The notes: generated by a model not told the origin, from the sequence alone. Counted from the first letter of the stretch, positions 13,385 through 41,787 are shown. The stretch: 64,000 nucleotides of DNA from Escherichia coli 042 (GCF_000027125.1 NC_017626.1), one strand, 5' to 3'. A program made the numbers and translations.

Positions 13385-13470
13385 GCGTTAGATGATGGCA
13401 TTCTCACTCCAGCCAGAGCCACCAACTCAGGGCTGAAGAGTAAAAAAACCGACGCAAAGTCGGTTTTTTT
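13385..13470 (+). ncRNA. agrA: agrA-like small RNA (approximate ends)
   Basis: First full copy of the repeat ctctcactccagccagagccaccaactcagggctg ending in the terminator aaaaaaaccgacgcaaagtcggttttttt; the 5' end is a guess. Confidence 0.45.
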
Positions 13471-13616
13471 ACATCCGGATTCGGACAAGGCTTAATATGA
13501 CGATGACCCAGTGAAAGTATATAAATCGTCACTGCGATATATACCGAAGTGCTCCCTCCGCCAGCTGAAGAAACCGCTAATTCTTGCAATGTTAGCCACT
13601 GGCTAATAGTATTGAA

Positions 13617-13701
13617 CCGTTAGATAAGAGCTCTCTCACTCCAGCCAGAGCCACCAACTCAGGGCTGGAAAGTAAAAAACCGACGCAAAGTCGGTTTTTT
13701 T
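13617..13701 (+). ncRNA. agrB: agrB-like antisense small RNA, antitoxin for dinQ (approximate ends)
   Basis: Second copy of the same repeat and terminator (13674-13701); complementary to the partial repeat at 13190-13250 that lies inside the dinQ transcript. Confidence 0.45.
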
Positions 13702-13853
13702 ACGTCCTGATTCAGACCTCCTTTCAAATGAATACCCAACGCTTAATTCACACCTATTACCTTCCTCTGCACATACACATTCGTTAAACCATATATGTTT
13801 TTGACTTATCCGCTTCGAAGAGAGACACTACCTGCAACAATCAGGAGCGCAAT

Positions 13854-14254: not shown

Positions 14255-14617
14255 ATGAAGACGTTAACGGTGTTTGATCCGGCGATGTGTTGCAGTACCG
14301 GCGTCTGTGGTTCTGATGTTGATCAGGTGCTGGTCGATTTTTCCGCAGATGTGCAATGGCTGAAAAGCCGCGGTGTTCAGGTCGAACGTTACAATCTCGC
14401 GCAGCAACCGATGAGTTTCGTGCAAAACGAAAAAGCGAAAGCGTTTCTTGAGGCTTCCGGGGCGGAAGGATTGCCCTTGATCTTACTGGGAGGCGAAACC
14501 GTGATGGCGGGCCGTTATCCGAAACGCGCCGAGCTAGCCCGCTGGTTTGGGATCCCGCTGGAGAAGGTGGGGCTGGCACCAACACACTGCTGTGGCGGAA
14601 AAACCGACTGTTGTTGA
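14255..14617 (+). CDS. arsD: Arsenic metallochaperone / secondary regulator ArsD (120 aa)
   Basis: MKTLTVFDPAMCCSTGVCG with Cys12-Cys13-Cys18 and a C-terminal cysteine-rich tail; ATG at 14255 preceded by gaggtg. Confidence 0.85.
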   Translation: MKTLTVFDPAMCCSTGVCGSDVDQVLVDFSADVQWLKSRGVQVERYNLAQQPMSFVQNEKAKAFLEASGAEGLPLILLGGETVMAGRYPKRAELARWFGIPLEKVGLAPTHCCGGKTDCC

Positions 14618-14634
14618 GCCGGTCAGGGGGACAT

Positions 14635-16386
14635 ATGAAATTCTTACAGAATATCCCGCCTTATCTGTTTTTTACCGGTAAGGGAGGTGTAGGTAAAACG
14701 TCAATTTCCTGCGCAACTGCTATCCATCTGGCGGAACAGGGAAAACGGGTTCTGCTTGTCAGCACCGACCCCGCGTCGAATGTCGGTCAGGTATTTAATC
14801 AAACTATTGGTAACGCTATTACTCCTGTGACAGCGGTTCCCGATTTGTCAGCGCTGGAAATTGACCCTCAGCAAGCCGCTGAACAGTATCGGGCCAGAAT
14901 CGTTGACCCTATCAAAGGACTTCTCCCTGAGGAGGTTGTAAATAGTATACGCGAACAACTTTCGGGAGCATGTACGACAGAGATCGCGGCGTTCGATGAG
15001 TTCACCGGTTTACTGACCGATGCCTCTCTGCTGGCCCGCTTTGATCACATCATTTTTGATACCGCGCCAACGGGCCATACCATACGACTTCTGCAGCTCC
15101 CCGGTGCCTGGAGCAGTTTTATTGAAAGTAATCCCGATGGTGCCTCCTGTCTTGGCCCGATGGCTGGGCTGGAAAAACAGCGTGAGCAGTACGCTGATGC
15201 GGTAGAAGCATTATCCGATCCTGAGCGTACCCGCCTGGTGCTGGTTGCACGCCTGCAAAAATCAACATTGCAGGAAGTCGCTCGCACTCATGAAGAACTG
15301 GCAGCGATTGGTCTTAAAAATCAGTATCTGGTGATCAACGGCGTATTGCCTGAGTCCGGGCAGCAAAATGACCCACTAGCAATGGCAATAGTTCAGCGTG
15401 AGCAGGAAGCCCTGGTAAATTTACCCGCCGGTTTATCGACCATTCCAGCAGATACCCTCTTTCTTCAACCGGTGAACATGGTTGGCGTGCCTGCATTAAA
15501 AGGTCTTTTTAATACCCGTTTCGAGCCTGCCCCACTCTCTGGCCAGGTGCGCCAGCAATTCTCTGAAAACATGTCATTCTCTGAGTTAGTGAATGATATT
15601 GCCCGCAGTGAACACGGTCTGATCATGCTGATGGGAAAAGGCGGCGTGGGGAAAACCACAATGGCCGCAGCTATCGCCGTCAGGCTGGCAGATATGGGAT
15701 TCGATGTGCATCTTACAACCTCCGATCCTGCTGCCCACATTAACACTACCCTAAACGGCACACTTAACAACCTACAGGTCAGCAGGATCAATCCGCAGGA
15801 AGAGACCGAGCGCTATCGCCAGCATGTCCTTGAGACAAAGGGAAAAGATCTCGATGAAGCGGGGAAACGACTGCTGGAAGAGGATTTACGCTCTCCCTGC
15901 ACCGAAGAGATTGCTGTATTTCAGGCGTTCTCGCGCGTGATCCGTGAGGCGGGTAAACGTTTTGTGGTGATGGATACCGCACCAACCGGTCACACGCTGT
16001 TACTGCTGGATGCCACCGGGGCTTATCACCGTGAAATTGCGAAAAAAATGGGCGAAAAAGGTCACTTTACTACGCCAATGATGCAACTTCAGGATCCGCA
16101 ACGCACCAAAGTGCTGCTGGTTACGCTGCCTGAAACCACACCCGTACTGGAAGCGGCTAATTTGCAGGCCGATCTTAAACGCGCAGGGATTCATCCCTGG
16201 GGCTGGATAATCAATAACTGCCTTTCTATTGCGGAAACTCGTTCGTCGCTACTGTGTCAGCGAGCAACGCAGGAACGACCACAAATTGAGGCGGTGATGG
16301 CCCGACATGCTAAGCGTGTAGCGCTGGTCCCTCTATTCGCACAAGAACCTACGGGTATCGAAAAACTCAGAAAGCTGGCAAGTTAA
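14635..16386 (+). CDS. arsA: Arsenite-stimulated ATPase ArsA (583 aa)
   Basis: Two homologous halves each with a P-loop (GKGGVGKTS, GKGGVGKTT) and DTAPTGHT signature. Confidence 0.9.
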   Translation: MKFLQNIPPYLFFTGKGGVGKTSISCATAIHLAEQGKRVLLVSTDPASNVGQVFNQTIGNAITPVTAVPDLSALEIDPQQAAEQYRARIVDPIKGLLPEEVVNSIREQLSGACTTEIAAFDEFTGLLTDASLLARFDHIIFDTAPTGHTIRLLQLPGAWSSFIESNPDGASCLGPMAGLEKQREQYADAVEALSDPERTRLVLVARLQKSTLQEVARTHEELAAIGLKNQYLVINGVLPESGQQNDPLAMAIVQREQEALVNLPAGLSTIPADTLFLQPVNMVGVPALKGLFNTRFEPAPLSGQVRQQFSENMSFSELVNDIARSEHGLIMLMGKGGVGKTTMAAAIAVRLADMGFDVHLTTSDPAAHINTTLNGTLNNLQVSRINPQEETERYRQHVLETKGKDLDEAGKRLLEEDLRSPCTEEIAVFQAFSRVIREAGKRFVVMDTAPTGHTLLLLDATGAYHREIAKKMGEKGHFTTPMMQLQDPQRTKVLLVTLPETTPVLEAANLQADLKRAGIHPWGWIINNCLSIAETRSSLLCQRATQERPQIEAVMARHAKRVALVPLFAQEPTGIEKLRKLAS

Positions 16387-16428
16387 TTTTTTATACAGGG
16401 CGACCATGTCGCCCTGTCAGGAGGGTGT

Positions 16429-17718
16429 ATGTTACTGGCAGGCGCTATTTTTGTCCTGACCATCGTATTGGTTATCTGGCAGCCGAAAGGTTTAGGCATC
16501 GGCTGGAGTGCAACGCTCGGCGCGGTACTGGCGTTGCTTACGGGCGTGGTTCATCCGGGTGATATTCCGGTGGTGTGGAATATCGTCTGGAACGCGACGG
16601 CGGCGTTTATTGCCGTCATTATCATCAGCCTGCTGCTGGATGAGTCCGGCTTTTTTGAATGGGCGGCGCTGCACGTCTCACGCTGGGGCAATGGACGCGG
16701 TCGCTTGCTGTTCACCTGGATTGTCCTGCTCGGTGCCGCCGTTGCAGCTCTGTTTGCCAATGATGGCGCGGCGCTGATTTTAACGCCAATTGTCATCGCC
16801 ATGCTGCTGGCTTTAGGATTCAGTAAAGGCACTACGCTTGCGTTTGTGATGGCGGCCGGGTTCATTGCCGATACCGCCAGCCTGCCGCTTATTGTCTCCA
16901 ACCTGGTGAATATCGTTTCCGCAGATTTCTTTGGCCTCGGCTTTCGCGAATACGCATCGGTGATGGTGCCGGTGGATATCGCCGCAATTGTTGCCACGCT
17001 GGTGATGTTGCATCTTTATTTCCGCAAAGATATTCCGCAGAACTACGACATGGCGCTGCTGAAATCGCCCGCAGAAGCGATTAAAGATCCTGCTACGTTC
17101 AAAACTGGCTGGTTTGTTTTACTGTTTCTGCTGGTGGGATTTTTCGTCCTGGAACCGCTCGGCATTCCGGTAAGCGCCATTGCGGCAGTGGGCGCGCTGA
17201 TATTATTTGCCGTCGCTAAACGCGGTCATGCAATTAATACGGGTAAAGTCCTGCGCGGTGCGCCCTGGCAGATTGTCATCTTCTCGCTCGGCATGTATCT
17301 GGTGGTTTATGGCCTGCGCAATGCCGGACTAACGGAATATCTTTCTGGCGTACTCAACGTGCTGGCGGAAAACGGCCTGTGGGCCGCGACGCTCGGCACC
17401 GGATTCCTCACCGCCTTCCTCTCTTCTATTATGAACAATATGCCGACGGTACTGGTTGGCGCGTTGTCCATTGATGGCAGCACGGCATCTGGCGTTATCA
17501 AAGAAGCGATGGTTTATGCCAACGTGATTGGCTGCGATTTGGGACCGAAAATTACCCCAATTGGTAGCCTGGCTACGCTACTCTGGCTGCACGTACTTTC
17601 GCAGAAGAATATGACTATCAGCTGGGGATATTACTTCCGTACAGGAATTATCATGACCCTGCCGGTGCTTTTTGTGACGCTGGCTGCGCTGGCGCTACGC
17701 CTCTCTTTCACTTTGTAA
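16429..17718 (+). CDS. arsB: Arsenite efflux pump ArsB (429 aa)
   Basis: 12-TM membrane protein of ArsB length, immediately after arsA. Confidence 0.9.
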
Positions 17719-18156: not shown

Positions 18157-18201
18157 AGCGGCGATATCCACTGCCGATAGTTGGTAAAGTGCGCTTCGTT
18201 T

Positions 18202-18296
18202 ATGTCGGATGCGACGCTAACGCGTCTTATCCGACCTACAAAACCGTGCAAATTCAATATATGGCATGAAATCTGTAGCGCGTAGCGCATCAGGCA
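18202..18296. repeat. REP-like palindromic units downstream of arsC
   Basis: atgtcggatgcgacgctaacgcgtcttatccgacctac and gtagcgcgtagcgcatcaggc resemble the REP consensus. Confidence 0.5.
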
Positions 18297-18586
18297 ATTT
18301 TGCTATTTACGCAGCACTCCTCGCGTAAGAATTCAATTATCGCTTCCAGCATTGCGTATTGCGAAACACACATCAGCGTCCGACTCTCACGGTTTTGTTT
18401 GACCAGCCCTACCGATACCAGTGCTGAAATATGGTGACTGAGTGTAGAGCCGGGTATCCCAAGCTGCTTTTGCAACTCACCGACCGGCAAACCTTGTTCC
18501 CCCGCTTTGACCAGGTGTTTGAATATGAACAAACGGGTCGGGTGACCTAGCTCTTTCAGCGCTTTAGCAACTTCTTCCAACTGCAT
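18290..18586 (-). CDS. ArsR/SmtB-family metalloregulator (98 aa), divergent from the downstream permease
   Basis: Winged-helix sequence LGHPTRLFIFKHLVKAGEQGLPVGELQKQLGIPGSTLSHHISALVSVGLV; cysteines near the C-terminus (MCVSQ, ECC). Confidence 0.75.
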   Translation of the reverse strand: MQLEEVAKALKELGHPTRLFIFKHLVKAGEQGLPVGELQKQLGIPGSTLSHHISALVSVGLVKQNRESRTLMCVSQYAMLEAIIEFLREECCVNSKIA

Positions 18587-18693
18587 ATGACACCCCCTTT
18601 GTCTGGTTGATATTTCGATAATACCAGAAATATCTTGATCTGAATTTCATTTCGATTATTCTGGAAATATGGATTCATTCAATGAGGTTACGT

Positions 18694-19695
18694 ATGAGTA
18701 GTTGGCTTGCGATGCTGCAAGATGCCGCAGAGATGTTTGTGTTTCTCGCCGTCGAGCTTTCTTTGCTGTTTATAGTGATTAGTGCCGGTGTCAGCCTGAT
18801 AAGACAAAAGGTGCCAGACCATAAAATCCAGCAGATGATGGGGGCCAGAAAAGGGAGAGGCTATCTCCTGGCGGCTCTGTTGGGAGCCGTTACCCCGTTC
18901 TGTAGTTGCTCGACAATCCCCATGTTACGTGGATTGTTGTCAGCGAAAGCCGGGTTCGGTCCGACCCTCACTTTTTTATTTGTTTCACCGTTACTTAATC
19001 CCATTATCGTCGGACTAATGTGGGTAACCTTTGGCTGGAAAGTTACCTTGTTGTACGCGATTATCGCCGCCGGCATCTCCGTACTTGCCAGTATTATCCT
19101 CGATTCTCTGGGGTTTGAACGTCATATCATTGCCAGTAAAAGCTCATCAGCAAATTGTTGTGCTCCAGCCAAAACTTCGCCAGGGACGACATATACGCCC
19201 ATAAAAGTGAGTTGCTGTAGTCCAGCGGCTAAAGTCATTGAGAAACCCGCAGTTAACTGTTGCAGTACCAAAGCAGTGGCAAGTATTAATCCCATAAAAT
19301 TAGCCATCAAAGATGCATTGCAGCAGTTTAAAGACGTACTGCCATATCTTGTGTTAGGGGTATTACTAGGCTCTTTTATTTATGGCTTTATCCCCTCACA
19401 GTGGATTGCCGCTCATGCAGGGGCAGATAATCCCTTCGCCATCCCATTGAGCGCCGTTGTCGGAATTCCGCTGTATATCCGGGCAGAGGCGGTTATCCCT
19501 CTGGCATCTGTTCTGATGACAAAAGGAATGGGTCTGGGAGCATTAATGGCATTAATCATCGGCAGTGCCGGAGCAAGCCTGACGGAAGTGATATTACTTA
19601 AATCAATGTTCAGAATACCGATGATAGTTGCATTCCTGACGGTTATATTAGGTATGGCTATCTTGATGGGCTATTTGACTCAAATGCTATTTTAA
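18694..19695 (+). CDS. Permease with a cysteine-rich central loop (ArsP / DUF318-like, ~333 aa)
   Basis: TM helices including a TPFCSCS motif flank a hydrophilic loop with three CC pairs (ANCCAP, VSCCSP, VNCCST); start set at the second ATG, which has GAGG upstream. Confidence 0.7.
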   Translation: MSSWLAMLQDAAEMFVFLAVELSLLFIVISAGVSLIRQKVPDHKIQQMMGARKGRGYLLAALLGAVTPFCSCSTIPMLRGLLSAKAGFGPTLTFLFVSPLLNPIIVGLMWVTFGWKVTLLYAIIAAGISVLASIILDSLGFERHIIASKSSSANCCAPAKTSPGTTYTPIKVSCCSPAAKVIEKPAVNCCSTKAVASINPIKLAIKDALQQFKDVLPYLVLGVLLGSFIYGFIPSQWIAAHAGADNPFAIPLSAVVGIPLYIRAEAVIPLASVLMTKGMGLGALMALIIGSAGASLTEVILLKSMFRIPMIVAFLTVILGMAILMGYLTQMLF

Positions 19696-20275
19696 ATAGA
19701 TGCCAGCAGTAAACTATAAGGAGCATTGTGAGTGCCTTATCCTTCTGAGTAGAAAATCATAGATAGGATAATCCTTAAAAATCACAAATAACTTAACTAA
19801 TGCTTTGAGAATGATGACGGATCCGTCAGTAAGTCATCAATCGACAATCACCACGCAATCATGCTTCTCTGACATTTTATCGGAGAAGCAATGTCTCTTT
19901 GTTTCAGTGCTATCCCCCCTTTTAAAGGGCAGATTTCAGTCGCCAATACAACACATTTTTAAATACACTTTAACCTGGTTCATTATTACACATCTAAAAC
20001 ATCACAAAAATATCACTTCACACACTATCGGTGAACATCATAACTTTTTAAAATGAGCGCTTTTTGATAGTTGTTAACGTTTTCCTTTACGATACTATCA
20101 CTGCCCTTTTTTTATACACAAATATTACCGGGTGGAGATAAAAGGGAAATCAAAGGTAATTATATCAGGAAGAGATAACGCATTACATTTATTGTGTGTA
20201 GAAGAAAATCCATTCCTGTTCTAATTATCCAATTTAAACATCTTAGCATAAAACAAATGATGAATAAGGAATTTT

Positions 20276-21499
20276 ATGTCAATTGACTTTACCCCAGGTA
20301 TGATAAATACATATCACGGCGATATTTATAACCGCACAACAGATACCGACAATGTTAAAACACCAGACACACCGATGTGGCCTTGTGATAATCAGGAAGA
20401 ACAGCAGCCCATTAATTTTTCATTGTCTGAAGAAGGATATAACGCTGAACAATTTGATTTAGCGCAACAACAACTCCAACAAATTAATGCGTACCACACG
20501 AACACCACATATACAAATGCAGACTACTCAAAAATTGTGGCTCAAATTGTAAGTCTTATTAATAACATTGAAACGATAAGTTCGACACCACTTACGCAAC
20601 AGACACAATCAATACTTAATCAGATTAATAACATTAGATACGAAAAGAATAAAAATTCTGAATGTCGAATCATTGTTGTCGCTAATCCTAAACCCGACAA
20701 GGCAATCATAACTAAAATTAGCGTAGAAGAGGGAATACCAGTAAGATTCAGTGTCCAAACCATGTTTTCAGATACTAATTTTATTACTGAACAACGAGCT
20801 GACTTACCGACTAATATAAAAGATATTCAAAGCCTGTATCAAAAAATGACGAAGTTATATATTGAGCACAGTGAAAATAAAAACAGGATGAAAGTCTTTG
20901 CCGGAACCAACTTTATTGATTTCAATATGACAGGACAGAACCTGTCCGGGTTCGTTCTAACCTTGTCAAGGTTTTATTTCGAAGATCTACTTAATATAAA
21001 TTTCACTGACGCAAATTTAGGTGACGCTATTTTTTCACATAAAGAACACCCTACCCCAAAATTATATAAAGACGAACAATACCTTGACAAACAAATCGAA
21101 GGTTTATTTTCAACATTATTAACCATTAATGACAACTTTTTACGAGCAAAAGCGGAAATTGCTTCGACAATAATTAAATTCTTAGAGGCCAGGATAACCA
21201 ATATTTCATACAATGACATATTAAAATATCAGAAAGAATTCCAAAAGCAATGTTATAAGCAAGTTAAAGCCTTTACGACACTCTCCCGATACAATAAAAT
21301 TCAAACATGGGCAGAAATGTCTGAATATCAATTCGAAGTATTTCAATACGAGATGCTTAACCCCAAAAAAATGTCATACGCACCTTATTTAAAGAGATCG
21401 CTACCTGATGAAAAAACTATAAATTATGGGGTGGAAATAGAAACACCAACTGGCAAAAGAATTCGCTTATCAAATCATTACCAGAATATAATCCCATAA
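20276..21499 (+). CDS. yhiS: Pentapeptide-repeat protein, intact YhiS-like (407 aa)
   Basis: AT-rich ORF with about 10 consecutive period-5 repeats ([45 protein letters not shown]); position matches yhiS. Confidence 0.7.
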
Positions 21500-21743
21500 T
21501 ATGAACATTAGCACTTTATAATCATTGAATAAAAATAGATTTTATGTACCTTTAAAAAAAGGCTATTTTATGGGGCGATGGATACTCATGTCACGCCCCA
21601 AAATTAACAGAATTAAACTAAACAGAAGGGATATAAACATCAGACAGGTTTACGTTACTATCAGGCATATCGCCTCAGAATCAGATGAAAACTATAAAGA
21701 AATATCTATTATGGTTTTAATATTTGTTGATAAGGATAGTAAC

Positions 21744-24130: not shown

Positions 24131-26113
24131 TTACCATTGATAACTCACGAAAATTTTTCCATTACGACCATCCTGTGGGATGCCTTGTGGCGACCAGTAC
24201 TCTTTGTCGAAAGCGTTACCCAACACCAAAGTAGTGGTCATACCTTTGAGCGCCTGCTGCCCTTGATAACTGACGTAGAAATCATTCACGCCATAGCCTG
24301 GTTGTTTGCTGTAACTGCTGCTGATATGTGTTGAGCGATCGGCAAACGTACCAACCCACCCAACAGAGAAGCCACTGTGAGCGATCGGAATATTCAGGGT
24401 GCTGGTAACGGTATCCGGGTTAATACTGGAGATATATTCGCCGGTATCGGTGTCTTTGCCGCGGGTACGGTTATAGGCCACATCAAGGCTAAACAGATCA
24501 GTGGTATATTTCGTCATCACATCCCAACCCCAGATTTTGGCGTTCGGGACGTTATACGACATAGTTGTCGCCGCCGCGAAATCGACGGTCGTGGAGATGT
24601 AATCCTTCGCTTTGGTATCAAAGTAGCTGGCTTTAAATTCCAGAGCATCATTGGACAACATCAGATCATCAAAACGCAGCCCAAAACCGTACTCCTGAGT
24701 TTCGTTAGTTTCCGGACGTAAGTTCGGGTTTGGCACCCAATAGTTGGTATAGAAGCGACCAATCGAGAAGTGCTTAGAATCGTTATACATTTCGCCCATC
24801 GTCGGGGCGCGGAATGCCTGGGCATATGAGCCAAATAACATCAGCCAGTTAGCCGGGTTGATAGTCATCCCCGCGCGAGATGACCATTTGTCGGCATCAA
24901 CATCTTTGTAGCCGTCGCTGCTACCGCGATAACTGTCATAGCGGGTTCCGCCAAGCAGGGTAATCGGCAGATCGCGTAAGGTGATCTCATCCTGTAGCCA
25001 GCCGGAGCTAAAATCGATTTTTGCTTGCGGGAAGCCCGTCGTCGCGCCGCCCGGATGTTGTTCCTGACGATAATACTCACCGCCATATGTCAGTAAGTGA
25101 GAAGCGAAACTGTCGGCAAATAGAGTGGAACGGTTCTCCAGTTTGGCTCCTTTTGTTATCTGTTCACGATACTCGCCGGAACTCCCCGTGTTTTGCGCAT
25201 TAATACGGACTTCCGACCAGTAAATTTTTGCATCTGCATTTAACCAGTCGTTGCCCTGCGGGGCGAGTTTATAAGAAAGCTGCGCATCGCGTTGAATTGT
25301 TGAACGATCAACCATCGGGTTGCTGCTATCAGAAGCTTCAACGGTCTGCGGATTTTTTGGTTCACGCGCGTCGTTGTTGTAGTAACGCACTAAACCGCTC
25401 AGAGACTGGGCTGAATCAATTTGCCAGGTCCCTTTCGCCAGCATGTTATTAATGGACTCGTCATTCGGCGCGGTTTCACCATTGCTCTGGCGTAAATCAC
25501 CCCGATCGCGACTGGACCAGGCCACAATACCATCCAGATTTTCAGTTCGCCCAAACGCGCTCGCGCCTAATCCCAGGCTATGGTCCCCCGTGCCGCCAGT
25601 ACCAAAGACACGAAAACCACTACTTTGTCCTTCCTGCAATAAATCTTTTGCATCGACCGTATCGTAGGAGATCACCCCACCCAGCGCGCCACTGCCATAC
25701 AGTAATGCTGAAGGTCCGCGAACAATCTCAACACGCTTGATCAGCGCCGGATCAAGAAAAGTACCATTCAGGTGTCCGGTATCCGTTCCCTGGCGAACAC
25801 CATCGACAAGAACCAGCACGCCGCGATGATCATAGCCACGCATATTTACATCCTGACCGTTGGTTCGTCCGGTACCATCAAGAGTAATTCCAGGAACATG
25901 ACGCAGCAGATCGGTGGCTGAAGTAGCCGTTTGATTTTCAGGAGCGGAAGTGTCGATGACGCTGACCATCATAGGCGCTTCGAAGGAACTACGGGCATTC
26001 CCCGTTGCCGTAACGGTCATGGTTTCAGTAGCAAAAGCAAACGTTGGCAAGGTGGCAGAAACAGCCAAAGCCAACAAACTCAAACGCAACGAGGTAAATT
26101 GCGGACGTGACAT
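24131..26113 (-). CDS. chuA: TonB-dependent outer membrane haem/haemoglobin receptor ChuA (660 aa)
   Basis: Signal peptide, TonB-box region, plug and beta-barrel, C-terminal aromatic residue. Confidence 0.9.
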   Translation of the reverse strand: MSRPQFTSLRLSLLALAVSATLPTFAFATETMTVTATGNARSSFEAPMMVSVIDTSAPENQTATSATDLLRHVPGITLDGTGRTNGQDVNMRGYDHRGVLVLVDGVRQGTDTGHLNGTFLDPALIKRVEIVRGPSALLYGSGALGGVISYDTVDAKDLLQEGQSSGFRVFGTGGTGDHSLGLGASAFGRTENLDGIVAWSSRDRGDLRQSNGETAPNDESINNMLAKGTWQIDSAQSLSGLVRYYNNDAREPKNPQTVEASDSSNPMVDRSTIQRDAQLSYKLAPQGNDWLNADAKIYWSEVRINAQNTGSSGEYREQITKGAKLENRSTLFADSFASHLLTYGGEYYRQEQHPGGATTGFPQAKIDFSSGWLQDEITLRDLPITLLGGTRYDSYRGSSDGYKDVDADKWSSRAGMTINPANWLMLFGSYAQAFRAPTMGEMYNDSKHFSIGRFYTNYWVPNPNLRPETNETQEYGFGLRFDDLMLSNDALEFKASYFDTKAKDYISTTVDFAAATTMSYNVPNAKIWGWDVMTKYTTDLFSLDVAYNRTRGKDTDTGEYISSINPDTVTSTLNIPIAHSGFSVGWVGTFADRSTHISSSYSKQPGYGVNDFYVSYQGQQALKGMTTTLVLGNAFDKEYWSPQGIPQDGRNGKIFVSYQW

Positions 26114-26118
26114 AGCGA

Positions 26119-26134
26119 TTCTCCATGAGGAAAA
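26119..26134 (-). promoter_or_regulatory. FourU-type RNA thermometer hairpin masking the chuA Shine-Dalgarno
   Basis: In chuA orientation 5'-UUUUCC-UCAU-GGAGAA-3' forms a 6-bp stem over the SD, 5 nt before the ATG; such a thermometer has been described for shuA/chuA. Confidence 0.5.
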
Positions 26135-26402
26135 TAAAAAATGCTGGCTGCCTGGGTTAATACCGGGGTGGCTGGCGAAAAATAAATTTATTTAAAATTC
26201 AGAGCGATAATATTCGCCGGGTGAGTTTACAGGCGTTTATATCCCATGAAATTGCCTGGTATCTCGGCAAATACGCAAAAGCACGCCCTCTTTGTCAGGC
26301 AAAACGATATGCCCCATCAGGAGTGAAGAGCGCTGTGCGTTACCCCTTGTAAATGATATGGCTTTGTTATCCATATGGCCGTATTTTGTTAAATGCAAAC
26401 GT

Positions 26403-35694: not shown

Positions 35695-36032
35695 TCAGGA
35701 CATAAGCAACTGAAATTGATGGCTGGCATGACGAGGGATGCAGATGCTGATTTCATTACCCCCGGTGATTACTAAAGGAGAGGCGAAAACGACTTTATTC
35801 CCCTGGTATGTGTATCCACCAGTAGAACCCTTCGTTGCCCGAATGCTGGCAGGAACTGTTGGCAGAACGGCAACATTTTTTTTGTCGTTGACCTCACCAT
35901 GTCGATCACTATGCCTGTATCCCACCTTACTGGCTGACAACCCCACTATGCCGCTGGTCTGTAAATCCCTCATATCTCTCCTCGCGCGCAATTTAAAGAA
36001 CCGTTATTTCTCAAGAATTTTCAGGGACTAAA

Positions 36033-41419: not shown

Positions 41420-41665
41420 GACTATCCCTTATATTTCATTACTGCGATTATTTCAATTTCAGTATACTAATGAAATGATGCCAGACTGTTTCTTAGCGCA
41501 AAAACTGCCAGATTTGGTAGGACCAAAATTTATCCACAAAGTAGTTTTGCATAACAGTTAATTGATAATAAGTAAATGCAACACGAATATATTTTCGCAC
41601 AGCGTATAGCTTATGTTTATAAAAAAATGGCTGATCTTATTTCCAGTAAAAGTTATATTTAACTT

Positions 41666-41771
41666 ACTGAGAGCACAAAGTTTCCCGTGCCAACAGGGAG
41701 TGTTATAACGGTTTATTAGTCTGGAGACGGCAGACTATCCTCTTCCCGGTCCCCTATGCCGGGTTTTTTTT
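41666..41771 (+). ncRNA. gadY: GadY small RNA, antisense to the gadX 3' UTR
   Basis: Plus-strand segment starting actgagagcacaaag and ending in the terminator ccggtcccctatgccggg plus T8, between gadW and gadX. Confidence 0.65.
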
Positions 41772-41787
41772 ATGTCTGAGTAAAACT

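What the first reader, a model, noticed from the sequence alone, without database searches (positions are those of the whole stretch)
20276..21499. Intact pentapeptide-repeat YhiS with no adjacent IS element
The ORF is uninterrupted at 407 aa and very AT-rich, with about 10 tandem pentapeptide repeats; the K-12 copy is IS-disrupted as I recall. Pentapeptide-repeat proteins include DNA-mimic and effector-like proteins, and the function here is unknown.
Basis: partly seen in the sequence, partly recalled or inferred. Interest (0 to 1): 0.4.

Follow-up and report, generated by a model that had tools for sequence, protein, structure and literature searches.

The report
Intact copy of orphan gene yhiS
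This is an undamaged copy of yhiS, an Escherichia-only gene of unknown function that is broken by a mobile element in the K-12 lab strain; undamaged copies occur in roughly four of ten E. coli genomes, so the finding is ordinary, although the gene varies unusually between strains and is often lost.

Summary
The ORF is real: 20276-21499 (+), 407 aa, 34% GC against about 50% in the flanks, with no IS element nearby. It is the orthologue of K-12 yhiS (b3504), which sits between the ars operon and slp at the edge of the acid fitness island. In K-12, IS5 splits the gene at a TTAG that is intact here.

An intact copy is not special. In an even sample of 60 of 5,414 complete E. coli genomes with a match, 26 carry an uninterrupted-length copy, and 8 of 8 checked translate to 407 aa. 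The remainder carry at least seven different lesions.

"Pentapeptide-repeat protein" is only partly right. Ten tandem A(D/N)LXX-like units occupy residues 206-255, which is 12% of the protein. The period-5 pattern is non-random and aligns without gaps to true pentapeptide-repeat proteins, but it scores below Pfam's cutoff. At about 2.5 coils it is too short for a Qnr/MfpA-type DNA mimic. The other 88% has no detectable relative among 1.8 billion representative proteins, or in Pfam, NCBIfam, PADLOC, PHROGs or the PDB.

Beyond the original finding:
- Alleles within E. coli fall to 62% amino-acid identity and are mosaic.
- dS is 0.3-0.6, against 0.03 for the adjacent slp.
- omega is 0.25-0.5, so intact copies remain under purifying selection.

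Function remains unknown. My best guess is an H-NS-silenced, dispensable binding protein.

The parts
20276..21499 (+). yhiS ORF: 407 aa plus stop, intact. Predicted soluble acidic protein of 47.3 kDa, pI 5.7, with no signal peptide and no transmembrane segment.
   Evidence: ORF listing. Composition, hydropathy and pI, with a maximum 19-residue Kyte-Doolittle value of 0.9. A 100% identical protein, P0001, is deposited at NCBI. Synteny with annotated E. coli loci.
20266..20270 (+). Shine-Dalgarno-like AAGGA, 5 nt upstream of the ATG.
   Evidence: Read directly from the sequence. The N-terminus MSI.FTP is invariant across alleles, which supports this start codon.
20891..21040 (+). Pentapeptide-repeat-like segment, residues 206-255: ten tandem A(D/N)LXX-like units, about 2.5 coils if folded as a quadrilateral beta-helix.
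   Evidence: The period-5 run of L/F/M was equalled in 0 of 20,000 shuffles. Gapless, in-register alignment with 33 segments from canonical pentapeptide-repeat proteins. Profile hits to true pentapeptide-repeat proteins at E=7e-9 to 6e-4 map only to residues ~204-256. The family profile hits Rfr 2f3l at E=0.0077. Pfam itself is below threshold.
21017..21020 (+). TTAG that is the IS5 insertion target in K-12, unoccupied here. It lies in pentapeptide unit 9 (A246-N-L-G-D250).
   Evidence: K-12 junctions read ...AAATTTAG|GGAAGGTGCGAA...IS5...TTCGCACCTTCC|TTAGGTGAC. Window sequence.
21030..21036 (+). TTTTTTC tract. Loss of the C in several lineages shifts the frame, giving a stop at codon 282.
   Evidence: Alignment of L008, L009, L010 and L012 with the window. 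Sequence.
21365..21371 (+). A7 homopolymer. It is A6 in O157:H7, which truncates the protein to 371 aa.
   Evidence: Alignment with L007. A 371-aa CDS is annotated in O157:H7. The 371-aa clusters P0043, P0045 and P0050. Sequence.
19750..21700 (.). AT-rich islet (GC 0.32-0.36) holding the yhiS upstream region, yhiS itself and the start of the yhiS-slp spacer. It coincides with the hypervariable block.
   Evidence: Composition profile. In 100-nt windows, identity to other strains falls to 68-90% inside about 19930-21630 and returns to 99-100% from 21631 onward. In K-12 the arsC/yhiS and insH11/slp intergenic regions are listed as H-NS-bound 'promoter islands' linked to predicted foreign genes (PMC3661553).

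Best explanation
This is an ordinary, intact allele of yhiS. The gene is known only from Escherichia and Shigella and appears to have been acquired horizontally. It sits between the ars operon and slp, at the left border of the acid fitness island.

Shown here: it encodes a soluble 47-kDa protein with no signal peptide and no membrane segment. No part of the protein has a detectable relative except a short central stretch of ten pentapeptide units (residues 206-255). The gene is hypervariable and mosaic within the species. Intact alleles are under moderate purifying selection. More than half of sampled genomes have lost it through independent lesions, and the IS5 in K-12 is just one of these.

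Taken from K-12 literature: the AT-rich locus is bound by H-NS and StpA.

Inferred: the gene is mostly transcriptionally silent, and the pentapeptide segment forms about 2.5 coils of a right-handed beta-helix. That helix would act as a rigid spacer or binding surface between the N-terminal region (modelled with low confidence as alpha/beta, residues ~57-200) and the C-terminal helical region (~267-361). The protein would work by binding a partner rather than by catalysis or DNA mimicry. It would be dispensable in most niches.
For: Identity and context:
- The ORF is at the stated coordinates.
- It has the same position and neighbours as annotated E. coli loci.
- K-12 carries IS5 at a TTAG that is intact here.

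Frequency of intact copies:
- 5,414 of 5,426 complete genomes have a match.
- In 60 evenly spaced rows, 26 span exactly 1,224 nt, and 8 of 8 fetched translate to 407 aa.

Independent lesions: IS5, IS1, a deletion that leaves only nt 1-380/388, loss of a C after the T6 tract, A7 to A6, A7 to A8, and a nonsense codon at position 105.

Orphan status:
- An exhaustive profile search of 1.84 billion representatives found one full-length cluster, fragments of it, and true pentapeptide-repeat proteins that match only residues ~204-256.
- Every named homologue is from Escherichia or Shigella.
- There are no phage or genuine plasmid copies.
- There are no PADLOC or PHROGs hits.

Foreign origin and silencing:
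- GC is 0.34 and GC3 0.32, against about 0.5 in neighbours.
- In K-12, the arsC/yhiS region is H-NS-bound in all ChIP studies and is linked to predicted foreign genes (PMC3661553).
- yhiS is named as a high-affinity StpA site (bioRxiv 10.64898/2026.02.10.705075).
- yhiS does not respond to YdeO overexpression (PMC4222967).

Selection:
- dS is 0.31-0.60 and omega 0.25-0.5 for yhiS.
- For slp, dS is 0.033. For arsC and dctR, omega is 0.07-0.11.
- By segment, omega is 0.10 for residues 256-300 and 0.13-0.37 for the repeat, the two most constrained segments in the deepest allele comparisons.

Protein properties: no transmembrane segment or signal peptide.
Against: - No expression, localisation or phenotype data exist for an intact allele. 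The K-12 literature treats only the pseudogene, for example reporting no chlorhexidine phenotype (PMC8170033).
- The beta-helix is not independently supported. AlphaFold2 on family sequences alone gave pLDDT 43.9 with helices across residues 206-255. The coil-like model depended on adding pentapeptide-repeat fragments to the alignment.
- H-NS silencing is taken from K-12 data on a disrupted allele and was not tested for this strain.
- Synonymous divergence ten times that of the flanks is not explained by a merely dispensable silent gene. It suggests balancing selection or repeated import of alleles.
Confidence: 0.7

Rival explanations
1. YhiS is a conflict gene, for example an anti-phage or anti-plasmid defence protein or a factor in competition between strains. 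Balancing or diversifying selection keeps its deep, recombining allele classes, and its cost explains repeated loss.
For: - dS of 0.3-0.6 within one species, next to slp at dS 0.033, with sharp boundaries to the divergent block.
- Mosaic alleles: P0044 and P0051 are reciprocal chimeras.
- At least seven independent inactivating lesions.
- Residues 301-365 show omega up to 0.94.
- AT-rich single-gene islet bound by H-NS.
Against: - No hit to 5,027 PADLOC models or to PHROGs.
- No nuclease, ATPase or other effector domain.
- A fixed chromosomal position in 5,414 of 5,426 genomes, with no mobile-element neighbours.
- Overall omega is below 0.5.
- The most divergent allele is also carried by strains named only 'Escherichia sp.' (which I take, from recall, to be cryptic-clade isolates), so import from sister clades could explain the depth without balancing selection.
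Confidence: 0.12
2. The ORF is a functionless relic. It would be a silenced foreign gene drifting towards loss, and the intact copies are simply those not yet hit.
For: - About 57% of sampled genomes carry a lesion.
- H-NS and StpA bind the locus.
- No phenotype is reported for the K-12 gene.
- No homologue exists outside Escherichia and Shigella.
Against: - omega is consistently 0.25-0.5 across deeply diverged intact alleles, and 0.10 for residues 256-300. Neutral drift would give about 1.
- A 407-codon open frame is kept in 34% GC DNA, where the chance expectation is 5.5e-14.
- Allele classes with dS up to 0.6 all keep the same 407-410 aa length.
Confidence: 0.13
3. YhiS is a secreted, effector-like pentapeptide-repeat protein, comparable to Salmonella PipB/PipB2 or E. 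coli EspX, delivered by a type III secretion system.
For: - AT-rich, horizontally acquired and H-NS-bound, as many effector genes are.
- The first ~55 residues are T/N/D/I/P-rich and modelled at pLDDT 21-35, so they may be disordered.
- It contains pentapeptide units.
- Comparison with PipB2 and EspX rests on my recollection of their architecture.
Against: - No NCBIfam or Pfam effector model matched, even at E<=10.
- The gene is chromosomal in essentially all E. coli, including strains without LEE, and no secretion-system or chaperone gene is adjacent.
- The repeat is central and short, not a long C-terminal array.
- No type III signal predictor was available, so the signal itself is untested.
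Confidence: 0.04
4. YhiS is a Qnr/MfpA/AlbG-type DNA mimic that protects gyrase or another DNA-binding enzyme.
For: Weak similarity of residues 206-255 to QnrB (NCBIfam E=0.038; PDB QnrB1 E=2.8).
Against: - Only ten units, about 2.5 coils. By my recollection of published Qnr and MfpA structures, those proteins are almost entirely repeat, with roughly 8-10 coils per monomer, and they dimerise into a DNA-sized rod.
- The QnrB model scores 14 bits against a cutoff of 460.
- 88% of the protein is non-repeat.
Confidence: 0.01

Closest known systems
E. coli K-12 yhiS (b3504, UniProt P37635; pseudogene fragments yhiS-1/yhiS-2 split by IS5 insH11)
   Same: Same gene at the same position, downstream of arsC and upstream of slp-dctR. 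The K-12 5' part is 94.6% identical in nucleotides over nt 1-746. The IS5 target TTAG is present here.
   Different: This copy is uninterrupted. It belongs to a different allele class and has an extra ArsR-like regulator plus permease insert upstream. Its downstream flank continues into the chu genes, not straight into yhiD-hdeBA as in K-12.
[not shown]
   Same: Orthologue, with about 95% nucleotide identity (PMC9729726).
   Different: O157 has A6 where this window has A7 (21365-21371). That truncates its protein and removes the conserved C-terminal 36 residues.
Pentapeptide-repeat protein family (Pfam PF00805; e.g. Rfr 2f3l, alr1298 6uvi, QnrB1 2xtw)
   Same: Residues 206-255 follow the A(D/N)LXX pattern in ten consecutive units and align without gaps to canonical repeats.
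   Different: The segment scores below Pfam's gathering score and covers only 12% of the protein. The beta-helix fold is not independently confirmed. Canonical members are mostly or entirely repeat.
Large multi-module pentapeptide-repeat proteins (P0149, P0155, P0162, P0173 and others), several ending in a PEP-CTERM-like hydrophobic tail as judged by eye
   Same: These are the best non-family hits. One of their ~50-residue modules (…DLTGWNFxGQNLTxAxFxxAxLTxANFTDAxI…) matches YhiS 204-256 at domain E about 1e-9 to 1e-7.
   Different: They carry 4-12 such modules and Pfam scores of 109-263 bits. They share nothing with YhiS outside the module.

Membership tests
YhiS orthologous group (Escherichia/Shigella) | Full-length sequence similarity to proteins annotated at the yhiS locus | tested here: met
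   100% identical to P0001. Identity of 62-99% over 100% of the length to 90+ proteins of 405-411 aa (almost all 407 or 410) from E. coli and Shigella. UniRef names one of them YhiS.
YhiS orthologous group (Escherichia/Shigella) | Conserved position between the ars operon and slp-dctR | tested here: met
   Same neighbours in GN25, K-12, O157 and three further assemblies.
Pentapeptide-repeat proteins (Pfam PF00805 / clan) | Tandem A(D/N)LXX units with a hydrophobic centre every fifth residue | tested here: met
   Ten consecutive units at residues 206-255. A run this long appeared in 0 of 20,000 shuffles. Gapless alignment to 33 canonical segments.
Pentapeptide-repeat proteins (Pfam PF00805 / clan) | Score at or above Pfam's gathering threshold | tested here: not met
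   PF00805 scores 11.9 bits against 20.2 (E=0.18). PF13599 scores 9.7 bits against 38.
Pentapeptide-repeat proteins (Pfam PF00805 / clan) | Right-handed quadrilateral beta-helix fold | tested here: inconclusive
   The model from family sequences alone has pLDDT 30-36 in this segment and predicts helices. With pentapeptide-repeat fragments in the alignment, pLDDT is 55-80 with beta-bridges every five residues, but that result is partly circular. The best-probability PDB hit is the pentapeptide-repeat protein 6uvi, at E=0.76 only.
Qnr/MfpA/AlbG DNA-mimic pentapeptide-repeat proteins | Protein made almost wholly of repeats and long enough to mimic a DNA duplex | tested here: not met
   Repeats cover 50 of 407 residues. 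The QnrB model scores 14 bits against a cutoff of 460. The length requirement comes from my recollection of published Qnr and MfpA structures.
Qnr/MfpA/AlbG DNA-mimic pentapeptide-repeat proteins | Protection of gyrase or topoisomerase from inhibitors | not testable with these tools
   This needs MIC or gyrase assays with an intact allele.
Type III secreted pentapeptide-repeat effectors (PipB/PipB2, EspX) | Sequence similarity to known effector families | tested here: not met
   No effector family appears in the NCBIfam or Pfam scans at E<=10. The exhaustive search found no such relatives.
Type III secreted pentapeptide-repeat effectors (PipB/PipB2, EspX) | N-terminal secretion signal and demonstrated translocation | not testable with these tools
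   No type III signal predictor was available. All that can be said is that there is no Sec signal or transmembrane segment.
Known anti-phage defence systems (PADLOC-DB 2.0) | Match to a defence-protein model | tested here: not met
   No families matched at E<=1.

The most novel reading that the evidence does not exclude
yhiS is a single-gene conflict locus, for example a new kind of defence or competition factor. It would be built from two orphan domains joined by a minimal pentapeptide beta-helix. Long-term balancing selection and intragenic recombination would keep its ancient allele classes in E. coli, while its cost would drive repeated loss.
Probability: 0.1. Interest if true: 0.6.

Novelty: already known. 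Interest (0 to 1): 0.2.

Why it matters
As submitted, it matters little. The intact gene is common, this exact protein is already deposited, and K-12's IS5 disruption is a strain peculiarity.

Two side results may be useful.

First, yhiS is a clear case of a species-restricted orphan gene that combines three features:
- deep, recombining alleles (dS ten times that of the next gene);
- continuing purifying selection on intact copies;
- at least seven independent routes to loss.

That combination is seen in genes involved in biological conflict. It makes yhiS a reasonable candidate for a small experimental screen.

Second, NCBI's annotation pipeline marks several truly intact copies as 'frameshifted'. 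This is probably because the truncated O157 protein serves as the reference, although I did not verify that cause. Pseudogene counts for this locus taken from annotation will therefore be wrong.

Tried and rejected
Domain and family scans:
- Pfam and NCBIfam returned only sub-threshold pentapeptide and QnrB hits. The PorH and methyltransferase hits are noise.
- PADLOC and PHROGs returned nothing.
- The family profile against PDB sequences found only pentapeptide-repeat proteins, with the best at E=0.0077.

Homology searches:
- The exhaustive profile search of 1.84 billion representatives found no relative of the N- or C-terminal regions.
- The scan of 100,044 species-representative genomes returned only a 409-bp contaminant contig in an Ensifer assembly. 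That scan relies on two exact peptide patterns and did not even recover E. coli's own representative, so it says little about other species.
- tblastn against phages found nothing. The three 'plasmid' hits are mislabelled 4.8-4.9 Mb chromosomes.

Structure:
- The first AlphaFold2 run was poor (pLDDT 43.9).
- The second run, with pentapeptide-repeat fragments added, reached pLDDT 52.3.
- Foldseek against the PDB gave no hit at E<=0.001.
- AFDB50 was not available.

Sequence-level scans:
- The promoter and terminator scan gave counts no higher than in shuffles.
- The DNA repeat search found no nucleotide-level tandem repeat under the pentapeptide segment.
- Rfam found nothing inside the locus.

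Literature: the papers read from three searches treat yhiS only as a pseudogene, as an 'unknown gene', or as an H-NS/StpA-bound region. None of those read addresses the function of the protein.

Full report
**Observation.** An AAGGA Shine-Dalgarno sequence lies 5 nt upstream. The gene is 33.9% GC with GC3 of 31.6%. The window overall is 48.9% GC, and the neighbouring arsC, permease, slp and dctR have GC3 of 48-57%. At this base composition, 407 stop-free codons have a chance probability of 5.5e-14, and the other five frames carry 18-49 stops each. This is a real coding frame.

**Identity and setting.** The region matches annotated E. coli chromosomes with the gene order arsR-D-A-B-C, an ArsR/SmtB-like regulator, an ArsP-type permease, this gene, slp, dctR, chuS, chuA. 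In K-12 the same gene is annotated as two pseudogene pieces flanking an IS5. The K-12 junctions show IS5 inserted at a duplicated TTAG. That TTAG is unoccupied here at 21017-21020. The literature knows the gene only in three ways:
- as the uncharacterised K-12 pseudogene yhiS (b3504, P37635; PMC8170033);
- as an H-NS/StpA-bound AT-rich region (PMC3661553; bioRxiv 10.64898/2026.02.10.705075).

yhiS did not respond to YdeO overexpression (PMC4222967). No transposase or IS lies near the gene in this window.

**Is an intact copy unusual? No.** The gene alone matches 5,414 of 5,426 complete E. coli genomes, always on the chromosome. The tool listed 60 rows at even steps down the ranking. They break down as follows:

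| Match type | Rows (of 60) |
|---|---|
| Spans exactly 1,224 nt | 26 |
| Spans 1,223 nt | 14 |
| Spans 1,222, 1,225 or 1,226 nt | 4 |
| K-12-type IS5 split | 4 |
| Keeps only nt 1-380/388 | 11 |
| Carries IS1 | 1 |

I fetched eight of the 1,224-nt copies from across the identity bands, and all eight translate to 407 uninterrupted residues. About 43% of complete genomes therefore hold an intact gene. A protein 100% identical to this one is already in NCBI (P0001).

The damaged copies carry at least seven distinct lesions:
- IS5 insertion;
- IS1 insertion;
- a large internal deletion;
- loss of the C after the T6 tract (window 21030-21036), giving a stop at codon 282;
- A7 to A6 at 21365-21371, which gives the 371-aa O157:H7 form;
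- A7 to A8 in another allele class, giving a stop at codon 328;
- a nonsense codon at position 105 in an O111 strain.

**The pentapeptide claim.** Residues 206-255 read [52 protein letters not shown] or M fills the central position in all ten units, and six of the ten have N or D just before it. A period-5 run this long occurred in 0 of 20,000 shuffles of the protein. Pfam nevertheless scores the segment below threshold (PF00805, 11.9 bits against 20.2), and NCBIfam's QnrB model gives 14 bits against a cutoff of 460.

A profile built from 14 diverse alleles finds the cyanobacterial Rfr domain 2f3l at E=0.0077. In the exhaustive search it also finds long canonical pentapeptide-repeat proteins at E=7e-9 to 6e-4. 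Every such hit maps to residues ~204-256. Thirty-three segments from those proteins align to 206-255 in register without a gap in YhiS.

It amounts to 12% of the protein and about 2.5 coils of a 20-residue-per-turn helix. By my recollection of the published structures, that is far shorter than the Qnr and MfpA rods that imitate DNA.

**The rest of the protein is an orphan.** The profile search of 1.84 billion representative proteins found a single full-length cluster plus fragments of it. All named members are E. coli, Shigella or 'Escherichia sp.'. There are no phage copies, and the three 'plasmid' hits are mislabelled chromosomes. PADLOC and PHROGs give nothing. The protein is acidic (pI 5.7) and hydrophilic, with no signal peptide and no membrane segment.

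**Unexpected variability.** Full-length alleles within E. coli fall to 76% amino-acid identity, and to 62% in a 410-aa class also carried by strains named only 'Escherichia sp.'. From recall, I take those to be cryptic-clade isolates. Between the window and two such alleles, synonymous divergence compares as follows:

| Gene | dS | omega |
|---|---|---|
| yhiS | 0.31 and 0.58 | 0.36-0.42 |
| slp (adjacent) | 0.033 | no non-synonymous change |
| dctR | 0.03-0.11 | 0.07-0.09 |
| arsC | 0.12-0.17 | 0.07-0.11 |

In 100-nt windows, identity drops to 68-90% between about 19930 and 21630 and returns to 99-100% from 21631 onward. The divergent block therefore coincides with the AT-rich islet. The alleles are mosaics. 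P0044 is 96-99% identical to the P0098 class over residues 1-255 and 95-96% identical to the window class over 256-365. P0051 is roughly the reverse.

Across all divergent pairs, omega is 0.25-0.5. In the deepest allele comparisons it falls to 0.10 for residues 256-300 and 0.13-0.37 for the repeat, and it rises to 0.94 for residues 301-365. Intact alleles are therefore still constrained as a protein, though weakly.

**Interpretation.** The best-supported account is this. yhiS is a horizontally acquired, Escherichia-restricted accessory gene in an H-NS-bound AT-rich islet. It encodes a soluble protein whose only recognisable element is a minimal pentapeptide-repeat segment, and most lineages can lose it without harm. 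I infer, but have not shown, that the repeat forms a short rigid beta-helix linking two orphan regions, and that the protein acts by binding a partner.

The deep, recombining alleles combined with repeated loss are not fully explained by this account. They leave room for a conflict-type function (probability about 0.1), or for import of alleles from sister clades. A pure relic is argued against by omega well below 1. A DNA mimic is argued against by the length of the repeat. A type III effector is argued against by the lack of similarity to any effector family and by the gene's near-universal chromosomal presence.

**Verdict.** The intact gene is common and already deposited, so novelty is 'already known' and interest is low (0.2). 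The population-genetic pattern is the only aspect worth following up.

Noticed in passing
L001 6577-7800; L014 31-1254; L015 31-1254 (orthologues of window 20276-21499): NCBI's PGAP pipeline flags these copies 'frameshifted' with a CDS of 1,117 nt, yet all three translate to 407 uninterrupted residues. The cause may be that the truncated 371-aa O157 protein serves as the reference, but I did not verify this. Pseudogene counts for this locus taken from annotation will be unreliable.
   Followed up: yes
window ~18200-19900: A 1.7-kb insert carrying an ArsR/SmtB-like regulator (18290-18586, - strand) and an ArsP_1-type permease (18682-19695, + strand) lies between arsC and yhiS. It is present in this window, GN25 and L005, and absent in K-12, O157:H7 and L004. 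It is a presence/absence polymorphism beside the variable gene.
   Followed up: partly
window 14611-17718: The ars operon here includes arsD and arsA (arsRDABC), as in strain GN25. K-12 has only arsRBC.
   Followed up: no
window 13388-13472, 13620-13703, 26111-26142 (-), 35812-35883, 41663-41776: Rfam hits above gathering score: two AgrB antisense RNAs, the shuA/chuA 5'-UTR thermoregulator, ES205 sRNA and GadY. All are expected for the dinQ-ars / chu / acid-fitness-island region.
   Followed up: no
L021 (NZ_SRXN01000179.1, 409 bp): A 409-bp contig at coverage 0.77 in an 'Ensifer sp. MPMI2T' assembly encodes the last 93 residues of YhiS at 89% identity. This is almost certainly E. coli contamination of that assembly.
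   Followed up: no
PLSDB records NZ_CP134663.1, NZ_CP141089.1, NZ_OL790696.1: Three records of 4.8-4.9 Mb held in the plasmid collection carry yhiS. They are chromosomes filed as plasmids.
   Followed up: no
window 21030-21036 and 21365-21371: Two of the recurrent frameshifts in other strains fall at short homopolymer tracts (T6 followed by C, and A7), and a third at an A7 tract in another allele class. This suggests slippage-prone hot spots. I did not test whether the changes are reversible or phase-variable.
   Followed up: partly
window 21500-21743 (yhiS-slp spacer) and 19696-20275 (upstream spacer): The right edge of the divergent block falls inside the yhiS-slp spacer at about 21630, just upstream of slp. 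In K-12, both spacers are listed as H-NS-bound 'promoter islands' (PMC3661553). The same table lists yjbI, which from recall I believe to be another K-12 pentapeptide-repeat pseudogene.
   Followed up: no
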